A stretch of DNA of 64,000 bases from Pseudolabrys sp. Lineage in GTDB: Bacteria > Pseudomonadota > Alphaproteobacteria > Rhizobiales > Xanthobacteraceae. A program made the translations under genes and the position numbers. The stretch covers positions 31,806-95,805 of the forward strand of contig DASZXA010000016.1 in the NCBI GenBank assembly GCA_035546455.1, read 5' to 3'. The notes below the pieces were generated by a model, which was given only the letters and a program-made list of their open reading frames with translations, was not told the origin of the DNA and searched no databases. Positions 4,432 through 56,410 of the stretch are shown here, one piece after another (the stretch's first letter is position 1; every line of letters starts with the position of its first letter).

Positions 4432-5817
4432 ATGGCGACTCGCGCCGCGACCGTTGATCGGCTGCGCGATTTTTTGCGTGAGCTTCCGGCGAATTCGCGA
4501 TCGACCCTGATCGTCGAGCTCGAACGCAAGATATTGGCCGGCGAAGCCATCGACGGCGCCGAACTCATCCTGACCGAATTGCGCCGGCTGTTTCGCGAGT
4601 CGCGGCAGACGATGCCGCGTCACGGCAACGCGGCGCGGCTGTTCTACAAGCCGCTCGAACCGTTCATGGTCGACGACAATGCGGAGCGGCGGCATCCCGG
4701 CCGCATCTCGCGCACCGTGCTCGACGCATTGTGGAGCTGGATTCGCCGCGACCTGCTGCCCGATCAGGCGGAGAAGTTCACCAGCACGATCGGCGAATTG
4801 CTGCTCACCAACGATACAACACGCGCGGATTTTCTGACACGCGAATTCCAGGATCAGGTTGCCGCCGCGCTTGCGCCTGCGTTTGCCGGCAATGACGATC
4901 GCGAACGGCGGCGGCTGCTGTCGCAGATCGGCACGCAGCGCCCGCAGGACGATGCCCTCAATCTCATGCGCGTGCTCAAGCTGCGCGATCCGCTCGCGAT
5001 GTTTGCCGACCATCTGCCCGGATATATCGCCAATCTTTCCGATCAGCGTCTGACGGAAACGCAGAGCTTGATCGCGGCGGCGGCCGGTCGCGCTCCCGAA
5101 ATCGTGCCTTATGCGCTGGTGATGGTGATGCGGCGTCTCGCGGCGCCGTGGCAAATGATCCGCCTGGTGCCGAAGGGGGCCCGGTTGCCGCCCGGTGAGG
5201 CGGAGATGGCCGTCGACATGGTAGTCGCGGAACTGGCGCGGCTCACCGACGAGCTGCAGGTCGATCTGCGCGGCGGCGGCGTGGCGACCGTCGGTCTGCT
5301 CCAGCAAATCCACGACGCGGCGCGTGGCCTGCGCACCGAACTCGAGCCGACTCCTGAACGCGCCAAGGAACTTGCGGTGCTGCGGACGCAAATCTCGAAC
5401 ATGCTGAAGACGCAAATCGAGTCGATGCCGGGACGCGTGCGCCGCCTGTTGCGCCCGCGGCCGACTTCCGAAATTCGCGCCAACTCGACGCTCAGCGCGG
5501 ACGAGGTGGCCGAGTCGGAAGAGCTGATCGGCCTGGTCGCCGCCTGCCGCAATTTCGCCGGTGAGCTGGCGCTCAACGAGGTGACGCAGCGCAGCTTCAC
5601 CGAGTTGCAGCAATTCCTCGATCAGAGCACGGGATCGCTGATCGACGCGCTGCGCCACGCCGGCGACGTCGATCGCGGTTTCCGGCAGTCGCAGGCCGAC
5701 GCCGCCGTGCGCTTTTGCCGCAAGACATTCGGGTCCGATTACGCGGCGATGCTGACCAAAGCCGCCGAGCTGGCGGGCCAGGCCGAGCGCAAAGAAAGCC
5801 AGCCCGCCGGCGCCTGA
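4432..5817 (+). CDS. hypothetical all-alpha-helical protein (461 aa)
   Basis: Long ORF with genome-typical codon usage, co-oriented with neighbours; no motif recognised. Confidence 0.8.
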   Translation: MATRAATVDRLRDFLRELPANSRSTLIVELERKILAGEAIDGAELILTELRRLFRESRQTMPRHGNAARLFYKPLEPFMVDDNAERRHPGRISRTVLDALWSWIRRDLLPDQAEKFTSTIGELLLTNDTTRADFLTREFQDQVAAALAPAFAGNDDRERRRLLSQIGTQRPQDDALNLMRVLKLRDPLAMFADHLPGYIANLSDQRLTETQSLIAAAAGRAPEIVPYALVMVMRRLAAPWQMIRLVPKGARLPPGEAEMAVDMVVAELARLTDELQVDLRGGGVATVGLLQQIHDAARGLRTELEPTPERAKELAVLRTQISNMLKTQIESMPGRVRRLLRPRPTSEIRANSTLSADEVAESEELIGLVAACRNFAGELALNEVTQRSFTELQQFLDQSTGSLIDALRHAGDVDRGFRQSQADAAVRFCRKTFGSDYAAMLTKAAELAGQAERKESQPAGA

Positions 5818-9911: not shown

Positions 9912-10069
9912 CGATCTGCTAACTCATTGATTGAGCAGCGTGAAATGCTTTTCCACGTTACCGATTATTAATTTGGCGGTCAGGCGACCGTAAGGCGCGT
10001 CTTCCTAGCTTGTGCGTTGAAACGATGCGTAACCGCATCCCCACAACGTTCGAGCCAAGGAGACTTTCG

Positions 10070-11593
10070 ATGAACCCGCGCGATATGTCCGCGCCCCGGC
10101 CGCGCCGCTTCTCGGTGCGGCGCGCTGCCTTGCTGGGCACCGCGTTGGCCGGTATTGGCGCCGCCGCTTTCGTTCTGGCGCCGGATCTGCCGAGCATCCA
10201 TTACCCAACCGCAGCGGCACAAAATCTTTCCGAGCAGGCCAAAAAGCTGAGTGCGCCGGTTGGCTTCGCCGACATCGTCGAGAAGGTGAAGCCCGCCGTC
10301 ATTCAGGTCCGCGTCGAGGTCAATGGCGGGCAGACGTCCGGCATGGGCAACATCGACAGCGACAGCCTGCCGCCGGGCTTGCGCGAGTTCTTCAAGCGAT
10401 TTGGCAATGGCCAGATGCCGCAGCAGCGCGGGCACGGTCACATTACCGGGCAGGGCTCGGGCTTTTTCATCACCGCCGACGGCTACGCCGTCACCAACAA
10501 TCACGTGGTCGAAAAGGCCGACAGCGTCCAGGTGACGACCGACGACGGCAAGATTTACAAGGCGAAGGTAATCGGCACCGATCCCCGCACCGATCTTGCG
10601 TTGATCAAGGTCGACGGCAAAGACTTCCCCTACGTGAAGCTGTCCGACAGTGTTCCGCGCATCGGCGACTGGGTGCTGGCGGTTGGCAATCCGTTCGGTC
10701 TCGGCGGCACCGTGACGGCGGGCATCGTCTCGGCGCGTGGCCGCGATATCGGCGCCAGCGCGTACGACGACTTCATCCAGATCGATGCGCCGGTGAACAA
10801 AGGCAATTCCGGCGGACCCACGTTCGACACCGAAGGCAATGTGATCGGCGTCAACACGGCGATCTATTCGCCGTCGGGCGGGTCGGTCGGCATTGCCTTC
10901 GCGATTCCGGCAGATACCGTGAAGTCGGTGGTCACCCAGTTGCGCGACCACGGCTCGGTCACCCGCGGCTGGATCGGCGTTCAGATTCAACCTGTGACGT
11001 CGGAGATTGCCGACAGTCTCGGCCTCAAGGCTGCCAAGGGTGCGCTGGTTTCCCAGCCGCAGGATAACAGCCCGGCGTCGAAGGCCGGTATCGCGGCCGG
11101 TGACGTCATCACGTCAGTCAACGGCGAAGAGGTCAAGGACGCCCGCGATCTCGCCAAGAAAATCGGCTCGATGCCGCCGGACAGCAAAGTGAAGCTGTCG
11201 GTACTGCATGACGGCAAAGAGAAGATGGTCTCGCTGACGCTCGGCAAGATGCCGGCGATGCAGCAAGAGGCGAGAAACACCAGCAACGAGGACGACTCCG
11301 GATCGGCCGAGATCGGCAAGCTAGGGCTGACGCTCGCGCCGGCGGACCGCGTCGGCGGCGCCAGCAACAATGGCGTGGTCGTGACCGGCGTCGATCCGTC
11401 CGGCACCGCGGCCGAGCATGGGTTCTCGACCGGTGACGTCATTCTGGAAGTGTCGGGCAAGCAGGTTTCGACCCCGGCCGATGTGCGCAAGGAGTTGGCG
11501 AGCGCACGTAACGACAAAAAGCGCGCAGTGCTGATGCGGGTGAAGTCCGGCGACAACACCAAGTTTGTCGCTCTCCCGATCAGCCGCGGCTAA
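10070..11593 (+). CDS. degP: Do/DegP family serine protease with two PDZ domains
   Basis: TNNHVV, DLAL, NKGNSGGP catalytic triad, two PDZ domains; AAGGAG RBS at 10057-10062 supports ATG 10070. Confidence 0.95.
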   Translation: MNPRDMSAPRPRRFSVRRAALLGTALAGIGAAAFVLAPDLPSIHYPTAAAQNLSEQAKKLSAPVGFADIVEKVKPAVIQVRVEVNGGQTSGMGNIDSDSLPPGLREFFKRFGNGQMPQQRGHGHITGQGSGFFITADGYAVTNNHVVEKADSVQVTTDDGKIYKAKVIGTDPRTDLALIKVDGKDFPYVKLSDSVPRIGDWVLAVGNPFGLGGTVTAGIVSARGRDIGASAYDDFIQIDAPVNKGNSGGPTFDTEGNVIGVNTAIYSPSGGSVGIAFAIPADTVKSVVTQLRDHGSVTRGWIGVQIQPVTSEIADSLGLKAAKGALVSQPQDNSPASKAGIAAGDVITSVNGEEVKDARDLAKKIGSMPPDSKVKLSVLHDGKEKMVSLTLGKMPAMQQEARNTSNEDDSGSAEIGKLGLTLAPADRVGGASNNGVVVTGVDPSGTAAEHGFSTGDVILEVSGKQVSTPADVRKELASARNDKKRAVLMRVKSGDNTKFVALPISRG

Positions 11594-11608
11594 CGAATGG
11601 GCGCGTGT

Positions 11609-11802
11609 TGCTGGCAATCGTCGCCCCCGCCAGTGGCATGAACCCAGCGGGGCGGGTGCGGGAAGTTCGCTTCCTTGCCCCGTCCCGACAGTTTCCCGAA
11701 GCGGCCATTGGCCGTTTCGGACCGAGCTCCAGCCCGGCATCCGTCGCCCCCGCCGGGATGGGGTCGCTGAGGGGGTGGCGGGCCAAATCCGCCACCCCCT
11801 CA
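11609..11802 (+). ncRNA. candidate structured RNA with five hairpins, two carrying near-identical C-rich loops
   Basis: Hairpins at 11611-11633, 11648-11688 (UUCG loop), 11696-11720, 11733-11757 and 11768-11802 (perfect 14-bp stem). G-U pairs and the UUCG loop favour the + strand. Confidence 0.6.
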
Positions 11803-11930
11803 CGTATGTTTAAGGGGTGGATAGGCCAAACTGCGGACTAAAATTGGTGTGATCGATGCCCATCTATGCAGATACAAACGGGCAACGCGCCGCTAGCCGA
11901 GCGGCTGAGCCGCAACCGGACCGCAGCACC

Positions 11931-12611
11931 ATGCGCCTGCTCATTATCGAGGATGACCGCGACGCCGCGGACTATCTGGTGAAGGCGTTTCGCGAGGTCG
12001 GTCACGTTGCCGATCAGGCCAACAACGGCGAGGAAGGTCTCGCGCTCGCGCTCGACGGCCAGTACGACGTGCTCGTGGTCGATCGCATGCTGCCGAAGCG
12101 CGACGGGCTGTCGGTCATCGGCGAGCTGCGGGACAAAGGCAATCATACACCGGCGCTTATTCTGTCCGCGCTGGGGCAGGTCGACGATCGTGTCAAAGGT
12201 TTGCGCGCCGGCGGCGATGACTATCTGGCTAAACCGTATTCGTTCAGCGAGCTGCTCGCTCGCATCGAAGTGCTGGCGCGGCGGGGCGGTGGCCGCAGCG
12301 AAGAGACGGTCTACCGGGTCGGCGACTTGAGCCTCGACCGGCTTTCGCATCTTGTCACGCGCAGCGGCCAGGAAATCACGCTGCAGCCGCGCGAGTTCCG
12401 GCTGCTCGAATATCTCATGCAGCATGCCGGCCAGGTGGTGACCCGCACGATGCTGCTCGAGAACGTGTGGGACTATCATTTTGACCCGCAAACCAACGTG
12501 ATCGACGTCCATATCTCGCGTTTGCGCTCGAAAATCGATAAAGGTTTCTCCCAGCCGCTTCTGCATACGGTCCGCGGCGCGGGGTACATGATACGTGACG
12601 GCGCTCGGTAA
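11931..12611 (+). CDS. OmpR-family response regulator (CpxR/CusR-like)
   Basis: MRLLIIEDD, VVDRMLP, GGDDYLAKPY, YHFDPQTNVIDVHISRLR. Confidence 0.93.
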   Translation: MRLLIIEDDRDAADYLVKAFREVGHVADQANNGEEGLALALDGQYDVLVVDRMLPKRDGLSVIGELRDKGNHTPALILSALGQVDDRVKGLRAGGDDYLAKPYSFSELLARIEVLARRGGGRSEETVYRVGDLSLDRLSHLVTRSGQEITLQPREFRLLEYLMQHAGQVVTRTMLLENVWDYHFDPQTNVIDVHISRLRSKIDKGFSQPLLHTVRGAGYMIRDGAR

Positions 12612-54972: not shown

Positions 54973-55110
54973 GCCGCAGCCTCTTGGAACTTTGTTGCAT
55001 GGCTCGCATGAGTTGATGCGGCTTTCCAAGCTGGCGTGAAGGTGCTTTTAAGCGCCCATCGGGCTGCGCTTTTCGAGCAGCCCCTCCACACAGCAAGAGG
55101 ATATTCCGTG

Positions 55111-56199
55111 ATGAAACGCCGGCAGTTTCTTGGCGTGGCAGGCGCGGGGCTCGCGGCGAGCGCAATCGCAGCGCCCGCGATTGCCCAGTCGAGCCCGCAA
55201 CTGAAATGGCGCCTGACATCGAGCTTCCCGAAGTCGCTCGATACGATCTATGGCGCATGCGAGATTTTCGCCAAGATCGTGGCCGAAGCCACCGATAACA
55301 ACTTCCAGATTGCGACCTTCCCGGCCGGAGAAATCGTGCCGGGTCTGGCGGCTGCGGACGCCGTCGGCAACGGCACCGTCGAGATGTGCCAGACCGCGTC
55401 TTATTACTATGTCGGCAAGGACCCGACGTTCGCCTTGTTCACGGCGCAGCCATTCGGCCTCAACGCGCGGATGCAGAATGCGTGGATGGCATTCGGCGGT
55501 GCGGGCGATCTCGCCAACACGTTCTACAAAAAATATGGCTTCATCGCGTTCCCGGCCGGCAATACCGGCACGCAGATGGGCGGCTGGTTCCGCAAGGAAA
55601 TCCATACCCCGGACGATCTCAAGGGTCTGAAATTCCGCACGGCCGGGTTCAACGGCCAGATCTTCAGCAAGATGGGCGCGGTGCCGCAGCAGATCGCCGG
55701 CGGCGACATCTACCCGGCACTGGAGAAGGGCACCATCGACGCTGTCGAGTGGGTCGGCCCGTACGACGACGAGAAGCTCGGCTTCGTGAAGGTCGCGAAA
55801 TACTACTACTATCCGGGCTGGTGGGAAGGTGGCGCGATGCTCCACCACTTCATCAATCTCGAAAAGTGGAACGCACTCCCGAAAAATTATCAGGCCATCG
55901 TGCAGGCCGCCTCCGCCGAGGCCAACACCTGGATGAACGCAAAGTACGATGCAGTAAATCCGGGTGCGCTCAAACGGCTGGTCGCCAATGGCGCGCAACT
56001 GCGCCCGTTCCCGCAACCTGTGATGGAAGCAAGCTACAAGGCGGCCTTGGCCACCTACGATGAAGTCTCGGCCAAGAACGCCGACTTCAAGAAGGTGTAC
56101 GACAGCATGATCGCCTTCCGTAACGACGAGTACCTCTGGTGGCAGGTCGCGGAGCTCGGCTTCGACGCCTTCATGGTGCGGATGCGCTCGCGCGGCTGA
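55111..56199 (+). CDS. TRAP substrate-binding protein, TakP/keto-acid type, Tat signal
   Basis: MKRRQFL, GNTGTQMGGWFRKEI, PQQIAGGDIYPALEKGT, WVGPYDDEKLGF. Confidence 0.93.
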   Translation: MKRRQFLGVAGAGLAASAIAAPAIAQSSPQLKWRLTSSFPKSLDTIYGACEIFAKIVAEATDNNFQIATFPAGEIVPGLAAADAVGNGTVEMCQTASYYYVGKDPTFALFTAQPFGLNARMQNAWMAFGGAGDLANTFYKKYGFIAFPAGNTGTQMGGWFRKEIHTPDDLKGLKFRTAGFNGQIFSKMGAVPQQIAGGDIYPALEKGTIDAVEWVGPYDDEKLGFVKVAKYYYYPGWWEGGAMLHHFINLEKWNALPKNYQAIVQAASAEANTWMNAKYDAVNPGALKRLVANGAQLRPFPQPVMEASYKAALATYDEVSAKNADFKKVYDSMIAFRNDEYLWWQVAELGFDAFMVRMRSRG

Positions 56200-56256: not shown

Positions 56257-56410
56257 GTGAATGGGCCATAAAACTAAGCTTTTCAGCCTTTCAAAAGCCG
56301 TGCAGACTGGCCCCAGCCGGCATGTCCGTCATATGGCGTGCCAACGGCAACGCCCATTATGGGGGTGGCGGGGCATAGCACCGCTTAAAATTGAAGAGGG
56401 AGGATACCGA

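What the first reader, a model, noticed from the sequence alone, without database searches (positions are those of the whole stretch)
11609..11802. Candidate undescribed structured RNA between degP and the RR-HK-glnE operon with twin 13-nt C-rich loops
Seen: five consecutive hairpins. H1 (ctggc 11611-15 / gccag 11629-33) has loop AAUCGUCGCCCCC and H4 (cccggc 11733-38 / gccggg 11752-57) has loop AUCCGUCGCCCCC: same length and the same CGUCGCCCCC decamer on different stems. H2 carries a UUCG tetraloop, H3 is an 11-bp stem, H5 a perfect 14-bp stem. Knowledge: rhizobial cuckoo/alpha-r14 sRNAs display repeated C-rich loops (CCUCCUCCC), but this loop sequence differs. Inference: a modular sRNA or 3'-UTR-derived RNA of the envelope-stress gene degP whose loops pair with G-rich targets or bind a protein.
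Basis: partly seen in the sequence, partly recalled or inferred. Interest (0 to 1): 0.75.

Follow-up and report, generated by a model that had tools for sequence, protein, structure and literature searches.

The report
Divergent BjrC80-type sRNA after degP
The five hairpins are a real, conserved structured RNA, but it is a diverged local version of the small RNA BjrC80 that sits after degP in Bradyrhizobium, and the function of its invariant C-rich loops is still unknown.

Summary
Window 11596-11806 (+) folds into five hairpins, and two of them carry 13-nt loops that share CGUCGCCCCC. The interpretation "undescribed" does not hold.

- **Identity.** Rfam's BjrC80 model (RF02354) aligns end to end at 32 bits (E about 2e-4, gathering score 80). 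In Bradyrhizobium genomes the same model scores 110-138 bits at the same place, directly after the degP stop and before the same response-regulator gene. Intermediate Xanthobacteraceae score 46-65 bits.
- **Conservation.** In 79 of 80 related loci the stems covary: 22/26 and 18/25 pairs carry compensatory changes, and 0/500 shuffles reach those values. The loop core GUCGCCCCC is nearly invariant. Many G-U pairs place the RNA on the + strand.
- **Architecture.** The RNA is two tandem copies of one module, a C-loop hairpin followed by a GC hairpin. The window's clade adds a variable hairpin, H3. One relative has six modules. Another has three free-standing modules away from degP.
- **Expression.** Metatranscriptome contigs cover the element.
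- **Mechanism (inferred).** The RNA is most likely made with the degP transcript and acts in trans, with its exposed C-rich loops pairing to G-rich targets. A protein-binding role or a cis role between degP and the regulator operon is not excluded.

This is a new variant of a known family, of moderate interest.

The parts
10010..11593 (+). degP (Do-family periplasmic serine endopeptidase); its stop codon ends 2-4 nt before the element
   Evidence: Pfam Trypsin_2 plus two PDZ domains. NCBIfam TIGR02037 scores 457 bits against a cutoff of 416.
11594..11701 (+). Module 1 (H1 + H2)
   Evidence: The covariance model R1, built from 80 orthologous H1+H2 segments, scores 63.4 bits, E 8e-11, over the full model.
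11598..11646 (+). H1: 12-bp stem (11604-15 / 11629-40) plus a 4-bp outer stem
   Evidence: Folding. In alignment A2, 16 of the 17 H1 pairs show a change on both sides.
11616..11628 (+). Loop 1, AAUCGUCGCCCCC (13 nt)
   Evidence: TCGCCCCC is invariant and the preceding G nearly so across 80 sequences. Predicted unpaired with probability >= 0.92. It matches the first-loop consensus aauuGUcGCCCCC of Rfam BjrC80.
11648..11687 (+). H2: GC-rich hairpin. In this window only, it is extended by GGAAG-UUCG-CUUCC (UUCG at 11666-69).
   Evidence: Folding. The core 9-bp helix GGGRCGGGY/RCCCGUCCC is 98% paired in 80 sequences, and 6 of 9 pairs show compensatory change.
11688..11695 (+). A/U-containing single-stranded linker (GACAGUUU)
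   Evidence: Unpaired probability is 0.92-0.96 at 11690-11695. Relatives have A/U-rich sequence at the same place (A1). That it is a possible RNase E or Hfq site is inference only.
11696..11720 (+). H3: clade-specific variable hairpin (11 bp, 3-nt loop)
   Evidence: All 28 Pseudolabrys-type relatives have a hairpin here, with unrelated sequence and segment lengths of 33-56 nt. It is absent from the short-type and Bradyrhizobium versions.
11717..11814 (+). Module 2 (H4 + H5), a diverged tandem duplicate of module 1
   Evidence: The H1+H2 model R1 matches it over the full model at 41.1 bits, E 2.5e-6. The same is seen in about 30 relatives.
11723..11766 (+). H4: inner 6-bp stem (11733-38 / 11752-57) plus an outer stem
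   Evidence: Folding. In A3 the inner and outer helices are 95% and 91% paired, and 4 of 6 pairs in each show compensatory change.
11739..11751 (+). Loop 4, AUCCGUCGCCCCC (13 nt)
   Evidence: Four C's of the run are invariant and CGTCG nearly invariant (at least 90%) in 62 sequences. Predicted unpaired with probability >= 0.92.
11768..11802 (+). H5: 15-pair terminal hairpin followed by CACGUAUGUUUA (terminator-like, weak U-tract)
   Evidence: Terminator scan. dG is -31.9 kcal/mol. It is 98% paired in 62 sequences, and 10 of 13 pairs show compensatory change. Orthologues in Bradyrhizobium and in the short type have a clear U-tract. Pseudolabrys-type relatives mostly do not.
11856..12611 (+). 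Response-regulator gene, most likely starting at the upstream in-frame ATG at 11856. Only about 53 nt then separate it from H5.
   Evidence: A conserved 23-29-aa N-terminal extension is present in 31 of 31 loci of the clade, and all length differences are in frame. Pfam Response_reg plus Trans_reg_C.

Best explanation
The element is this organism's version of the BjrC80 small RNA. The organism is an uncultured soil Xanthobacteraceae near Pseudolabrys.

Shown:
- It is a roughly 210-nt RNA read from the + strand. It starts within a few bases of the degP stop codon and ends at hairpin H5.
- It consists of two tandem copies of one module: a long hairpin presenting an invariant 13-nt C-rich loop (A-U/A-C/U-CGUCGCCCCC), followed by a GC-rich hairpin.
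- A clade-specific variable hairpin, H3, lies between the two modules.
- The stems are kept by compensatory changes and the loops are kept in sequence.

Inferred:
- The RNA is transcribed together with degP, because no conserved promoter of its own is visible. It then persists as a stable species, either ended at H5 or cut out of the longer transcript.
- It acts in trans. The two exposed C-rich loops serve as redundant seed regions that pair with G-rich stretches in mRNA leaders. This is how C-rich loops work in GsrN of Caulobacter and in the cuckoo/CcsR RNAs.
- This would tie a post-transcriptional output to expression of the envelope protease gene.

No targets have been identified.
For: Identity:
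- Rfam RF02354 aligns over 1-162/162 at 11596-11806 (+), 32.2 bits, E 1.7-2.6e-4. Its first-loop consensus is aauuGUcGCCCCC.
- The same model scores 110-138 bits immediately after degP in Bradyrhizobium loci L051, L068, L072, L074 and L075, and 46-65 bits at that spot in eight other Xanthobacteraceae.
- The degP-spacer-RR arrangement was found in all 78 loci where both genes could be read.
- L074 (bona fide BjrC80) and L033 fold into the same four-hairpin plan.

Structure:
- H1+H2: 22 of 26 pairs show two-sided change, 87% paired against 39-52% when the partner is slid, 0/500 shuffles reach this.
- H4+H5: 18 of 25 pairs, 96% paired against 47-58% slid, 0/500.
- H3 forms in all 28 relatives although its sequence is unrelated.
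- Strand: frequent G-U pairs, for example GC:42/GU:33 and UG:33/UA:24, would be A-C mismatches on the other strand.

Specificity: model R1 hits only the degP-RR spacer, + strand, in 79 of 80 loci across 570 kb. In the 64-kb window it hits only the two modules.

Sequence-specific loops: the loop core is invariant while the stems vary, and the loops are predicted to be unpaired.

Trans action:
- Three free-standing single modules, with terminator-like second hairpins, lie at a locus without degP or RR (L114).
- Five extra tandem modules occur in L022.
- Precedent: the C-rich loop of GsrN pairs with a G-tract in the katG leader (PMC5869019).

Transcription:
- RNA-library contigs cover 11459-11857, while the degP body upstream of about 11440 is scarcely covered in those runs.
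- In Bradyrhizobium L054, contigs run from degP through the spacer into BjrC80.
Against: - The Rfam score is far below the curated gathering score (32 against 80).
- No target was found. Apart from H5 itself, the only fully complementary site in the window is at 56361, in the leader of a TRAP binding-protein gene, and it is no more than chance would give.
- The RNA evidence consists of low-depth, strandless assembled contigs from metatranscriptomes. These may contain DNA, and they show no discrete 5' or 3' ends.
- One contig runs about 55 nt past H5.
- In the window's clade H5 mostly lacks a U-tract, and the regulator gene probably starts only about 53 nt downstream. An intercistronic cis role is therefore a live alternative.
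- The function of BjrC80 itself has never been established, as far as the held literature shows.
Confidence: 0.55

Rival explanations
1. Protein-binding or sponge RNA. The invariant 13-nt loops would be recognition sites for an RNA-binding protein rather than pairing seeds. The RNA would titrate or scaffold that protein, as RsmY/Z/CsrB do for CsrA with repeated GGA loops. The number of modules would set its capacity.
For: Both the sequence and the exact length (13 nt) of the loops are fixed, and the closing G-C/C-G pairs are kept, across lineages whose DegP is only 60-75% identical. Module number varies from one per gene (L114) to six (L022), as is typical of sponge RNAs. No convincing RNA target was seen.
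Against: No bacterial protein known to me recognises such C-rich loops. No candidate protein gene is linked to the locus. Seed regions of pairing sRNAs with many targets are conserved just as strictly. The known C-rich-loop RNAs of alphaproteobacteria act by base pairing.
Confidence: 0.15
2. Cis-acting intercistronic element. The structure would work only on its own transcript. It could act as a 3' stabiliser or terminator for degP. It could also act as a switch that sets how much transcription or translation continues into RR-HK-glnE, for example by the H4 or H1 loop pairing with the G-rich 5' arm of H5 before H5 closes.
For: - The element fills almost the whole gap. It starts 2-4 nt after the degP stop and ends about 53 nt before the probable RR start.
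- No promoter-like site was found between H5 and RR.
- Contigs cross from BjrC80 into RR in L054.
- The loop is complementary to the H5 5' arm over 10-13 contiguous pairs (dG -20 to -27 kcal/mol), with p about 0-0.03 against shuffled arms, in the window and most non-Bradyrhizobium relatives. In the window, this arm and one unrelated site at 56361 are the only fully complementary + strand sites.
Against: - The loop/H5-arm complementarity is not kept in Bradyrhizobium proper (7 pairs, p 0.2-0.4), nor in L014, L026, L029, L034, L040 and L042, yet the loops there are just as conserved.
- H5 (-32 kcal/mol) would outcompete the pairing at equilibrium.
- Free-standing modules exist away from degP/RR (L114).
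- A purely structural stabiliser would not need invariant loop sequences.
- The loop shows no more than background complementarity to the RR translation-initiation region.
Confidence: 0.15
3. There is no dedicated function: a chance run of GC-rich hairpins, a generic intergenic repeat (REP/RIME-like), or a small protein-coding gene.
For: The genome is GC-rich and hairpins are common. Mechanical ORFs overlap the region.
Against: - The element has a single syntenic location per genome and no further copy in the window.
- Covariation is far above the controls.
- Length differences in H2 and H3 are not multiples of three, and changes are compensatory in stems rather than at third codon positions.
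- There is a significant match to a curated sRNA family.
Confidence: 0.02

Closest known systems
BjrC80 (Rfam RF02354, 'Bradyrhizobiaceae sRNA BjrC80'; Madhugiri et al. 2012, RNA Biol 9:47, cited from memory and from reference lists; the paper itself was not readable here)
   Same: - Same genomic place and strand, directly 3' of degP and 5' of the same regulator gene.
- Same order of parts: C-loop hairpin, GC hairpin, second C-loop hairpin, terminal hairpin.
- The first loop is the same 13-nt sequence type with GUCGCCCCC.
- The Rfam model aligns end to end.

   Different: - It scores 32 bits against a gathering score of 80.
- An extra, variable hairpin H3 (a 72-nt stretch in place of 29 model positions) lies between the modules.
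- The second loop is a copy of the first (AUCCGUCGCCCCC) rather than the Bradyrhizobium form A-U-A-(U/C)-GCCCCCCU.
- H2 carries a UUCG-capped extension.
- The U-tract after H5 is weak.
- The host is outside Bradyrhizobium.

Cuckoo / alpha-r14 RNAs and Rhodobacter CcsR1-4 (own knowledge)
   Same: Alphaproteobacterial RNAs built from repeated hairpin modules that display a conserved C-rich loop. Module number changes by tandem duplication, and the RNAs can be co-transcribed with an upstream gene.
   Different: Their loop motif is CCUCCUCCC (anti-Shine-Dalgarno-like), which is absent here. No Rfam match to those families was found. The genomic context is different.
GsrN of Caulobacter (PMC5869019)
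   Same: An exposed run of cytosines in an apical loop is the most conserved part of the RNA. In GsrN it pairs with a G-tract in an mRNA leader (katG). This is a working model for the loops here.
   Different: No sequence or Rfam relation. GsrN is driven by a sigma-EcfG promoter near the general-stress locus, and no GGAAC-N15-18-CGTT site exists anywhere in the window. GsrN has a single loop rather than twin loops.
CpxQ and other 3'-UTR-derived envelope-stress sRNAs of enterobacteria (own knowledge)
   Same: An sRNA encoded at the 3' end of an envelope-quality-control gene and next to a two-component system. It would be made from the parent mRNA rather than from a promoter of its own.
   Different: No homology. 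Processing from the degP mRNA is not shown here. CpxQ is short, binds Hfq and has a linear seed rather than hairpin loops.

Membership tests
Rfam RF02354 BjrC80 | Covariance-model score at or above the curated gathering score (80 bits) | tested here: not met
   32.2 bits, E 1.7-2.6e-4, model positions 1-162 of 162. Relatives form a gradient: 110-138 bits in Bradyrhizobium and 46-65 bits in other Xanthobacteraceae.
Rfam RF02354 BjrC80 | Position: immediately downstream of the degP orthologue, same strand, upstream of the OmpR-type regulator | tested here: met
   Above-threshold BjrC80 hits in L051, L068, L072, L074 and L075 start 3-60 nt after the degP stop. The window element starts 2-4 nt after it.
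Rfam RF02354 BjrC80 | 5' hairpin with a 13-nt loop containing GUCGCCCCC | tested here: met
   The model consensus is aauuGUcGCCCCC and the window loop is AAUCGUCGCCCCC. The core is conserved in 80 sequences.
Rfam RF02354 BjrC80 | Four-hairpin plan: C-loop hairpin, GC hairpin, second C-rich-loop hairpin, terminal hairpin | tested here: met
   Folds of L074 and L033 compared with the window. The window has one extra hairpin, H3, inserted.
Rfam RF02354 BjrC80 | Intrinsic terminator (hairpin plus U-tract) at the 3' end | tested here: inconclusive
   The H5 hairpin is present and the scan accepts CGTATGTTTA as a tail. The run of U is weak, however, and most close relatives have GCGUACGA instead.
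Rfam RF02354 BjrC80 | Expressed as a discrete small RNA (Northern blot in B. japonicum, per the 2012 paper) | not testable with these tools
   Only strandless, low-depth metatranscriptome contigs are available. They cover 11459-11857.
Cuckoo / alpha-r14 / CcsR | CCUCCUCCC motif in the hairpin loops | tested here: not met
   No match in the element, even allowing one mismatch.
Cuckoo / alpha-r14 / CcsR | Match to the Rfam models of these families | tested here: not met
   None appears among the matches up to E = 10.
GsrN-type sigma-EcfG sRNA | sigma-EcfG promoter (GGAAC-N15-18-CGTT) upstream | tested here: not met
   No such site occurs in the whole window.
ROSE thermometer (weak Rfam match) | Score at the gathering threshold, with a Shine-Dalgarno sequence and AUG sequestered in the last hairpin of a heat-shock gene leader | tested here: not met
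   20.1 bits against 45, E 1.4. No start codon follows H5 closely.

The most novel reading that the evidence does not exclude
The module (a long hairpin presenting A-U-C-CGUCGCCCCC, followed by a GC hairpin) would be the unit of a so far uncharacterised regulatory system of soil Bradyrhizobiaceae/Xanthobacteraceae. Its loops would be read by one conserved partner, either a G-rich RNA or a protein that binds C-rich loops. Module number would evolve freely, from 1 to 6. In the window's clade the element would also act in cis. The loops mimic the 3' arm of H5 and can pair with its 5' arm. Occupancy of the loops by the partner would then decide whether H5 forms, and so how much expression passes from degP into the RR-HK-glnE genes. 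This would link envelope stress to a two-component system and to control of nitrogen assimilation.
Probability: 0.1. Interest if true: 0.65.

Novelty: new variant of a known kind. Interest (0 to 1): 0.35.

Why it matters
BjrC80 has been in Rfam since 2012, but no function or mechanism is recorded in the literature available here.

- **Wider distribution.** The family extends well beyond Bradyrhizobium. It is present in 79 of the 80 degP loci examined, including Pseudolabrys, Rhodoplanes, Pseudorhodoplanes and many uncultured soil lineages. The current Rfam model misses most of these copies.
- **Functional core.** The comparison across lineages points to two nearly invariant C-rich loops carried on a duplicated module. 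The module can also be amplified or stand alone as its own gene.
- **Experimental handle.** This gives a concrete experiment: mutate the loops and capture their partners. These organisms are abundant in soil and rhizosphere. The locus sits between an envelope protease gene and a two-component/glnE operon.

For genome annotation, the practical result is that this intergenic region should be labelled as a BjrC80-like sRNA and not as a new RNA class.

Tried and rejected
1. **Other Rfam families.** The matches to tpke11, ROSE, P2, RsmW, BjrC68 and miRNA models are all weak (12-21 bits, E 0.03-8) and cover single hairpins. They were rejected.
2. **A generic genomic repeat.** Both the decamer and the model R1 find only the two modules in 64 kb.
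3. **The loop hairpin in other bacteria.** An exact 18-mer scan of 185,579 genomes gave hits in Actinobacteria, Myxococcota and other groups. Those hits do not form the hairpin and lie away from degP, so they are chance matches. Every hairpin-forming hit lies beside degP/RR, except in L114.
4. **A conserved promoter for the sRNA.** None was found. In about 20 loci variable insertions, often GCATGATC...GATCATGC palindromes, separate degP from H1. Neither a sigma-70-like nor an EcfG-like site was found.
5. **Loop pairing with the RR start region.** It is no better than background; the median rank is 0.5.
6. **Loop pairing with the H5 5' arm as a family-wide feature.** I first dismissed this on a miscount and then re-examined it. 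It is significant in the window's clade and in the short type, but absent from Bradyrhizobium and several other lineages. I keep it only as a minor rival.
7. **Target search within the window.** Only one non-self site was found, which is within chance.
8. **Literature.** The original BjrC80 paper could not be opened. The TSS supplement of the USDA 110 dRNA-seq study lists BjrC68 and BjrC174 but not BjrC80.
9. **Coding potential of the element.** Rejected on the pattern of indels and substitutions.

Full report
**Observation.**
- H1 is ctggc 11611-15 / gccag 11629-33 around the loop AAUCGUCGCCCCC.
- H4 is cccggc 11733-38 / gccggg 11752-57 around AUCCGUCGCCCCC.
- H2 carries a UUCG tetraloop at 11666-69.
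- H3 is an 11-bp stem.
- H5 has 15 pairs (14 Watson-Crick plus one G-U).

Folding extends H1 to 11598-11646 and H4 to 11723-11766. The + strand folds with z = -5.3 against dinucleotide shuffles and the - strand with z = -3.5. Both 13-nt loops are predicted unpaired with probability 0.92-1.0. The decamer CGTCGCCCCC occurs exactly twice in the 64 kb, and both copies are in these loops.

**Surroundings.**
- Upstream lie ccmF and ccmH, followed by a Do/DegP-family serine endopeptidase gene at 10010-11593 (TIGR02037, above its cutoff).
- Downstream lie an OmpR-type response regulator, a HAMP/HisKA histidine kinase and GlnE, with overlapping stop/start codons.
- The regulator gene in this clade most likely starts at an upstream in-frame ATG, at window 11856. 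All 31 loci examined encode a conserved extension of 23-29 residues (MPTYADI.GQRA.GR.ADAQPDRVT), and every length difference is a multiple of three.
- The non-coding gap is therefore 11594-11855, and the structured element fills 11596-11806 of it.

The organism is known only from soil and rhizosphere metagenomes. Its DegP is at most 76% identical to those of Pseudolabrys and other Xanthobacteraceae MAGs.

**What it is.**
- No Rfam family reaches its gathering score anywhere in the window.
- With permissive thresholds, RF02354 (BjrC80, 'Bradyrhizobiaceae sRNA') aligns over its whole length (1-162) to 11596-11806 on the + strand at 32.2 bits, E about 2e-4.
- The model's first-loop consensus, aauuGUcGCCCCC, is the H1 loop. 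H2 and H5 align to the model's second and last hairpins. A 72-nt stretch (H3 plus H4) stands where the model has 29 positions.
- I fetched 80 loci that encode relatives of the window's DegP. All 78 loci in which both genes could be read have the same degP-spacer-regulator arrangement.
- In Bradyrhizobium loci the Rfam model passes its threshold (110-138 bits) directly after the degP stop. In eight other Xanthobacteraceae it scores 46-65 bits at the same spot, always full length and on the + strand.
- A bona fide Bradyrhizobium copy (L074) folds into four hairpins: one with a 13-nt loop AUUCGUCGCCCCC, a GC hairpin, one with a second C-rich loop (AAUAUGCCCCC), and a terminator.
- A 'short-type' relative (L033) has the same four hairpins with twin AUCCGUCGCCCCC loops and a U-tract.

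The window element is therefore the syntenic, diverged counterpart of BjrC80. The curated model does not recognise it at its threshold.

**Comparative structure.**
- For H1+H2 in 80 sequences, 86.8% of cells are paired, against 39-52% when the partners are slid. Twenty-two of 26 pairs have compensatory changes, and none of 500 column shuffles reaches the observed values.
- For H4 (inner and outer helices) plus H5 in 62 sequences, 95.7% are paired against 47-58% slid. Eighteen of 25 pairs are compensatory, again with 0/500.
- H3 is present only in the Pseudolabrys-type clade. All 28 sequences form one hairpin there although the sequences cannot be aligned and the segment varies from 33 to 56 nt.
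- Frequent G-U pairs (for example GC:42/GU:33 and UG:33/UA:24) show that the + strand is the one under selection.
- The loop cores are almost invariant, in contrast to the stems.

**Modularity.** A covariance model built only from H1+H2 (R1) gives these results.
- It finds two hits in the window: H1+H2 (63 bits) and H4+H5 (41 bits, E 2.5e-6, full length). The RNA is therefore an internal tandem duplication of one module.
- Across 570 kb of related loci it hits only the degP-RR spacer, + strand, in 79 of 80 loci.
- Locus L022 has five nearly identical extra modules with a 94-nt period, six loops in all.
- Locus L114 has three single modules, each with a terminator-like second hairpin, at a place with no degP or regulator gene within 8 kb. 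Two of them are preceded by a TGTGA-N4-TCACA palindrome.
- An exact scan of 185,579 genomes for the loop plus its closing pairs found no other hairpin-forming copies.

**Transcription.** Only assembled, strandless contigs of public runs are available.
- In RNA libraries (four labelled metatranscriptomes and one, X24, whose RNA label is a guess), contigs cover 11459-11696, 11534-11684, 11551-11704, 11617-11793 and 11718-11857. In those runs the degP body upstream of about 11440 is scarcely covered.
- For a Bradyrhizobium locus, contigs run from degP through a repeat insertion into BjrC80 and on into the regulator gene.
- This shows that the region is transcribed and is contiguous with the degP 3' end. 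It does not define transcript ends.
- No conserved promoter precedes H1. In about 20 loci unrelated insertions separate degP from H1. This favours co-transcription with degP but does not prove it.

**How it probably works.** The pattern of covarying stems, invariant exposed loops, duplicated and amplifiable modules and free-standing copies points to a function carried out by the loops through sequence-specific recognition, most simply in trans. C-rich apical loops of alphaproteobacterial sRNAs are known to pair with G-rich mRNA leaders, as in GsrN/katG (PMC5869019) and in the cuckoo/CcsR RNAs (own knowledge). I therefore commit to a base-pairing sRNA made with the degP transcript. I am about 0.9 confident that it is a BjrC80-type RNA and about 0.45-0.5 confident in the trans-pairing mechanism.

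I could not find targets.
- The only non-self site in the window that is fully complementary to the loop (56361-70) lies 41-50 nt upstream of a TAT-signal DctP-family binding-protein gene. It is within chance expectation.
- The regulator's start region is no more complementary to the loop than background.

**Rivals.**
- A protein-sponge role fits the fixed loop length and the variable module number, but it has no candidate protein.
- A cis role is supported by how tightly the element fills the gap between degP and the regulator gene, and by the weak U-tract after H5.
- It is also supported by 10-13 contiguous pairs between the loops and the 5' arm of H5 (dG -20 to -27 kcal/mol, p about 0-0.03 against shuffled arms).
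- That complementarity is missing in Bradyrhizobium and several other lineages whose loops are equally conserved. H5 itself is far more stable (-32 kcal/mol).
- Chance, a generic repeat and coding are excluded by the comparative data.

**Comparison and novelty.** The closest known entity is BjrC80. Position, strand, hairpin plan and first loop are shared. The Rfam gathering score is not met, H3 is extra, the second loop is a copy of the first, and the terminator tail is weak. The element works like the cuckoo/CcsR and GsrN RNAs in presenting C-rich loops, but it fails their defining features: there is no CCUCCUCCC motif and no EcfG promoter. I rate it a new variant of a known kind. Interest is moderate (0.35). 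The family's function remains open. The modular reading and the much wider distribution than Rfam records are useful, but a specialist would not be greatly surprised.

Noticed in passing
window 11856-11930 (and L001-L029, L069 upstream of the regulator gene): The response-regulator ORF has a conserved in-frame N-terminal extension of 23-29 residues (MPTYADI.GQRA.GR.ADAQPDRVT, followed by MRLL...). It is present in all 31 loci of the clade, with only in-frame length changes and synonymous-looking third-position variation. The true start is therefore probably ATG 11856 and not 11931. The extension is preceded by the conserved sequence GGAATTGGTGTGACCG, which has no clear Shine-Dalgarno sequence. 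Bradyrhizobium lacks the extension.
   Followed up: partly
L022 4587-5181 (CAWGGL010000044.1): The H1+H2 module is amplified in tandem: five nearly identical copies with a 94-nt period, then the usual H3-H4-H5. This gives six C-rich loops and a 789-nt degP-RR spacer.
   Followed up: partly
L114 1092-1820, minus strand (CAVYCI010000005.1): Three free-standing single modules (37-44 bits with R1) lie about 300 nt apart, away from any degP or RR gene and beside FkbM-type methyltransferase genes. Two of them are preceded by the palindrome CTGTGACA(A/T)ATCACAGTTG (TGTGA-N4-TCACA), a possible operator.
   Followed up: partly
window 11739-11751 / 11616-11628 versus 11770-11782: The loops resemble the 3' arm of H5 (CGUCGCCCCC against CGCCACCCCC). 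They can therefore pair with its 5' arm GGGGGUGGCG over 10-11 contiguous pairs. In L004 the H5 3' arm is exactly CCGUCGCCCCC. The complementarity is significant against shuffled arms in this clade but is not kept in Bradyrhizobium.
   Followed up: yes
window 56361-56370: GGGGGTGGCG is the only other site in the window fully complementary to the loop. It lies 41-50 nt upstream of the ATG (56411) of a TAT-signal DctP-family TRAP solute-binding protein gene. A paralogous DctP gene lies just upstream (55036-56199). The site is within chance expectation and is a lead only.
   Followed up: partly
L020, L041, L054, L060, L063, L032, L033 and others, between the degP stop and H1: Insertions of 50-120 nt contain palindromic GCATGATCC...GGATCATGC-type units. 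In L054 one such unit (4658-4704) has very high k-mer depth in soil metatranscriptomes, as expected of a dispersed repeat family of Bradyrhizobiaceae.
   Followed up: no
L001, L002, L005, L007, L010, L011, L013, L019, L022, L024: 30-150 nt downstream of H5: Short G-runs such as GGGGGC and GGGGCGAC(G), which are complementary to the loops, recur in the variable stretch between H5 and a conserved TTGAC...GAATTGACTGGAATTGG box upstream of the regulator gene. The window itself lacks this stretch. This was seen by eye only and was not tested against chance.
   Followed up: no
Bradyrhizobium loci L051-L079, 60-90 nt upstream of the regulator start: The conserved motif CTTGCATG-N13-16-CGCGCCATGGTGA lies downstream of the BjrC80 terminator. 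It may be the regulator operon's own promoter or operator in that genus. The window's clade has nothing equivalent.
   Followed up: no
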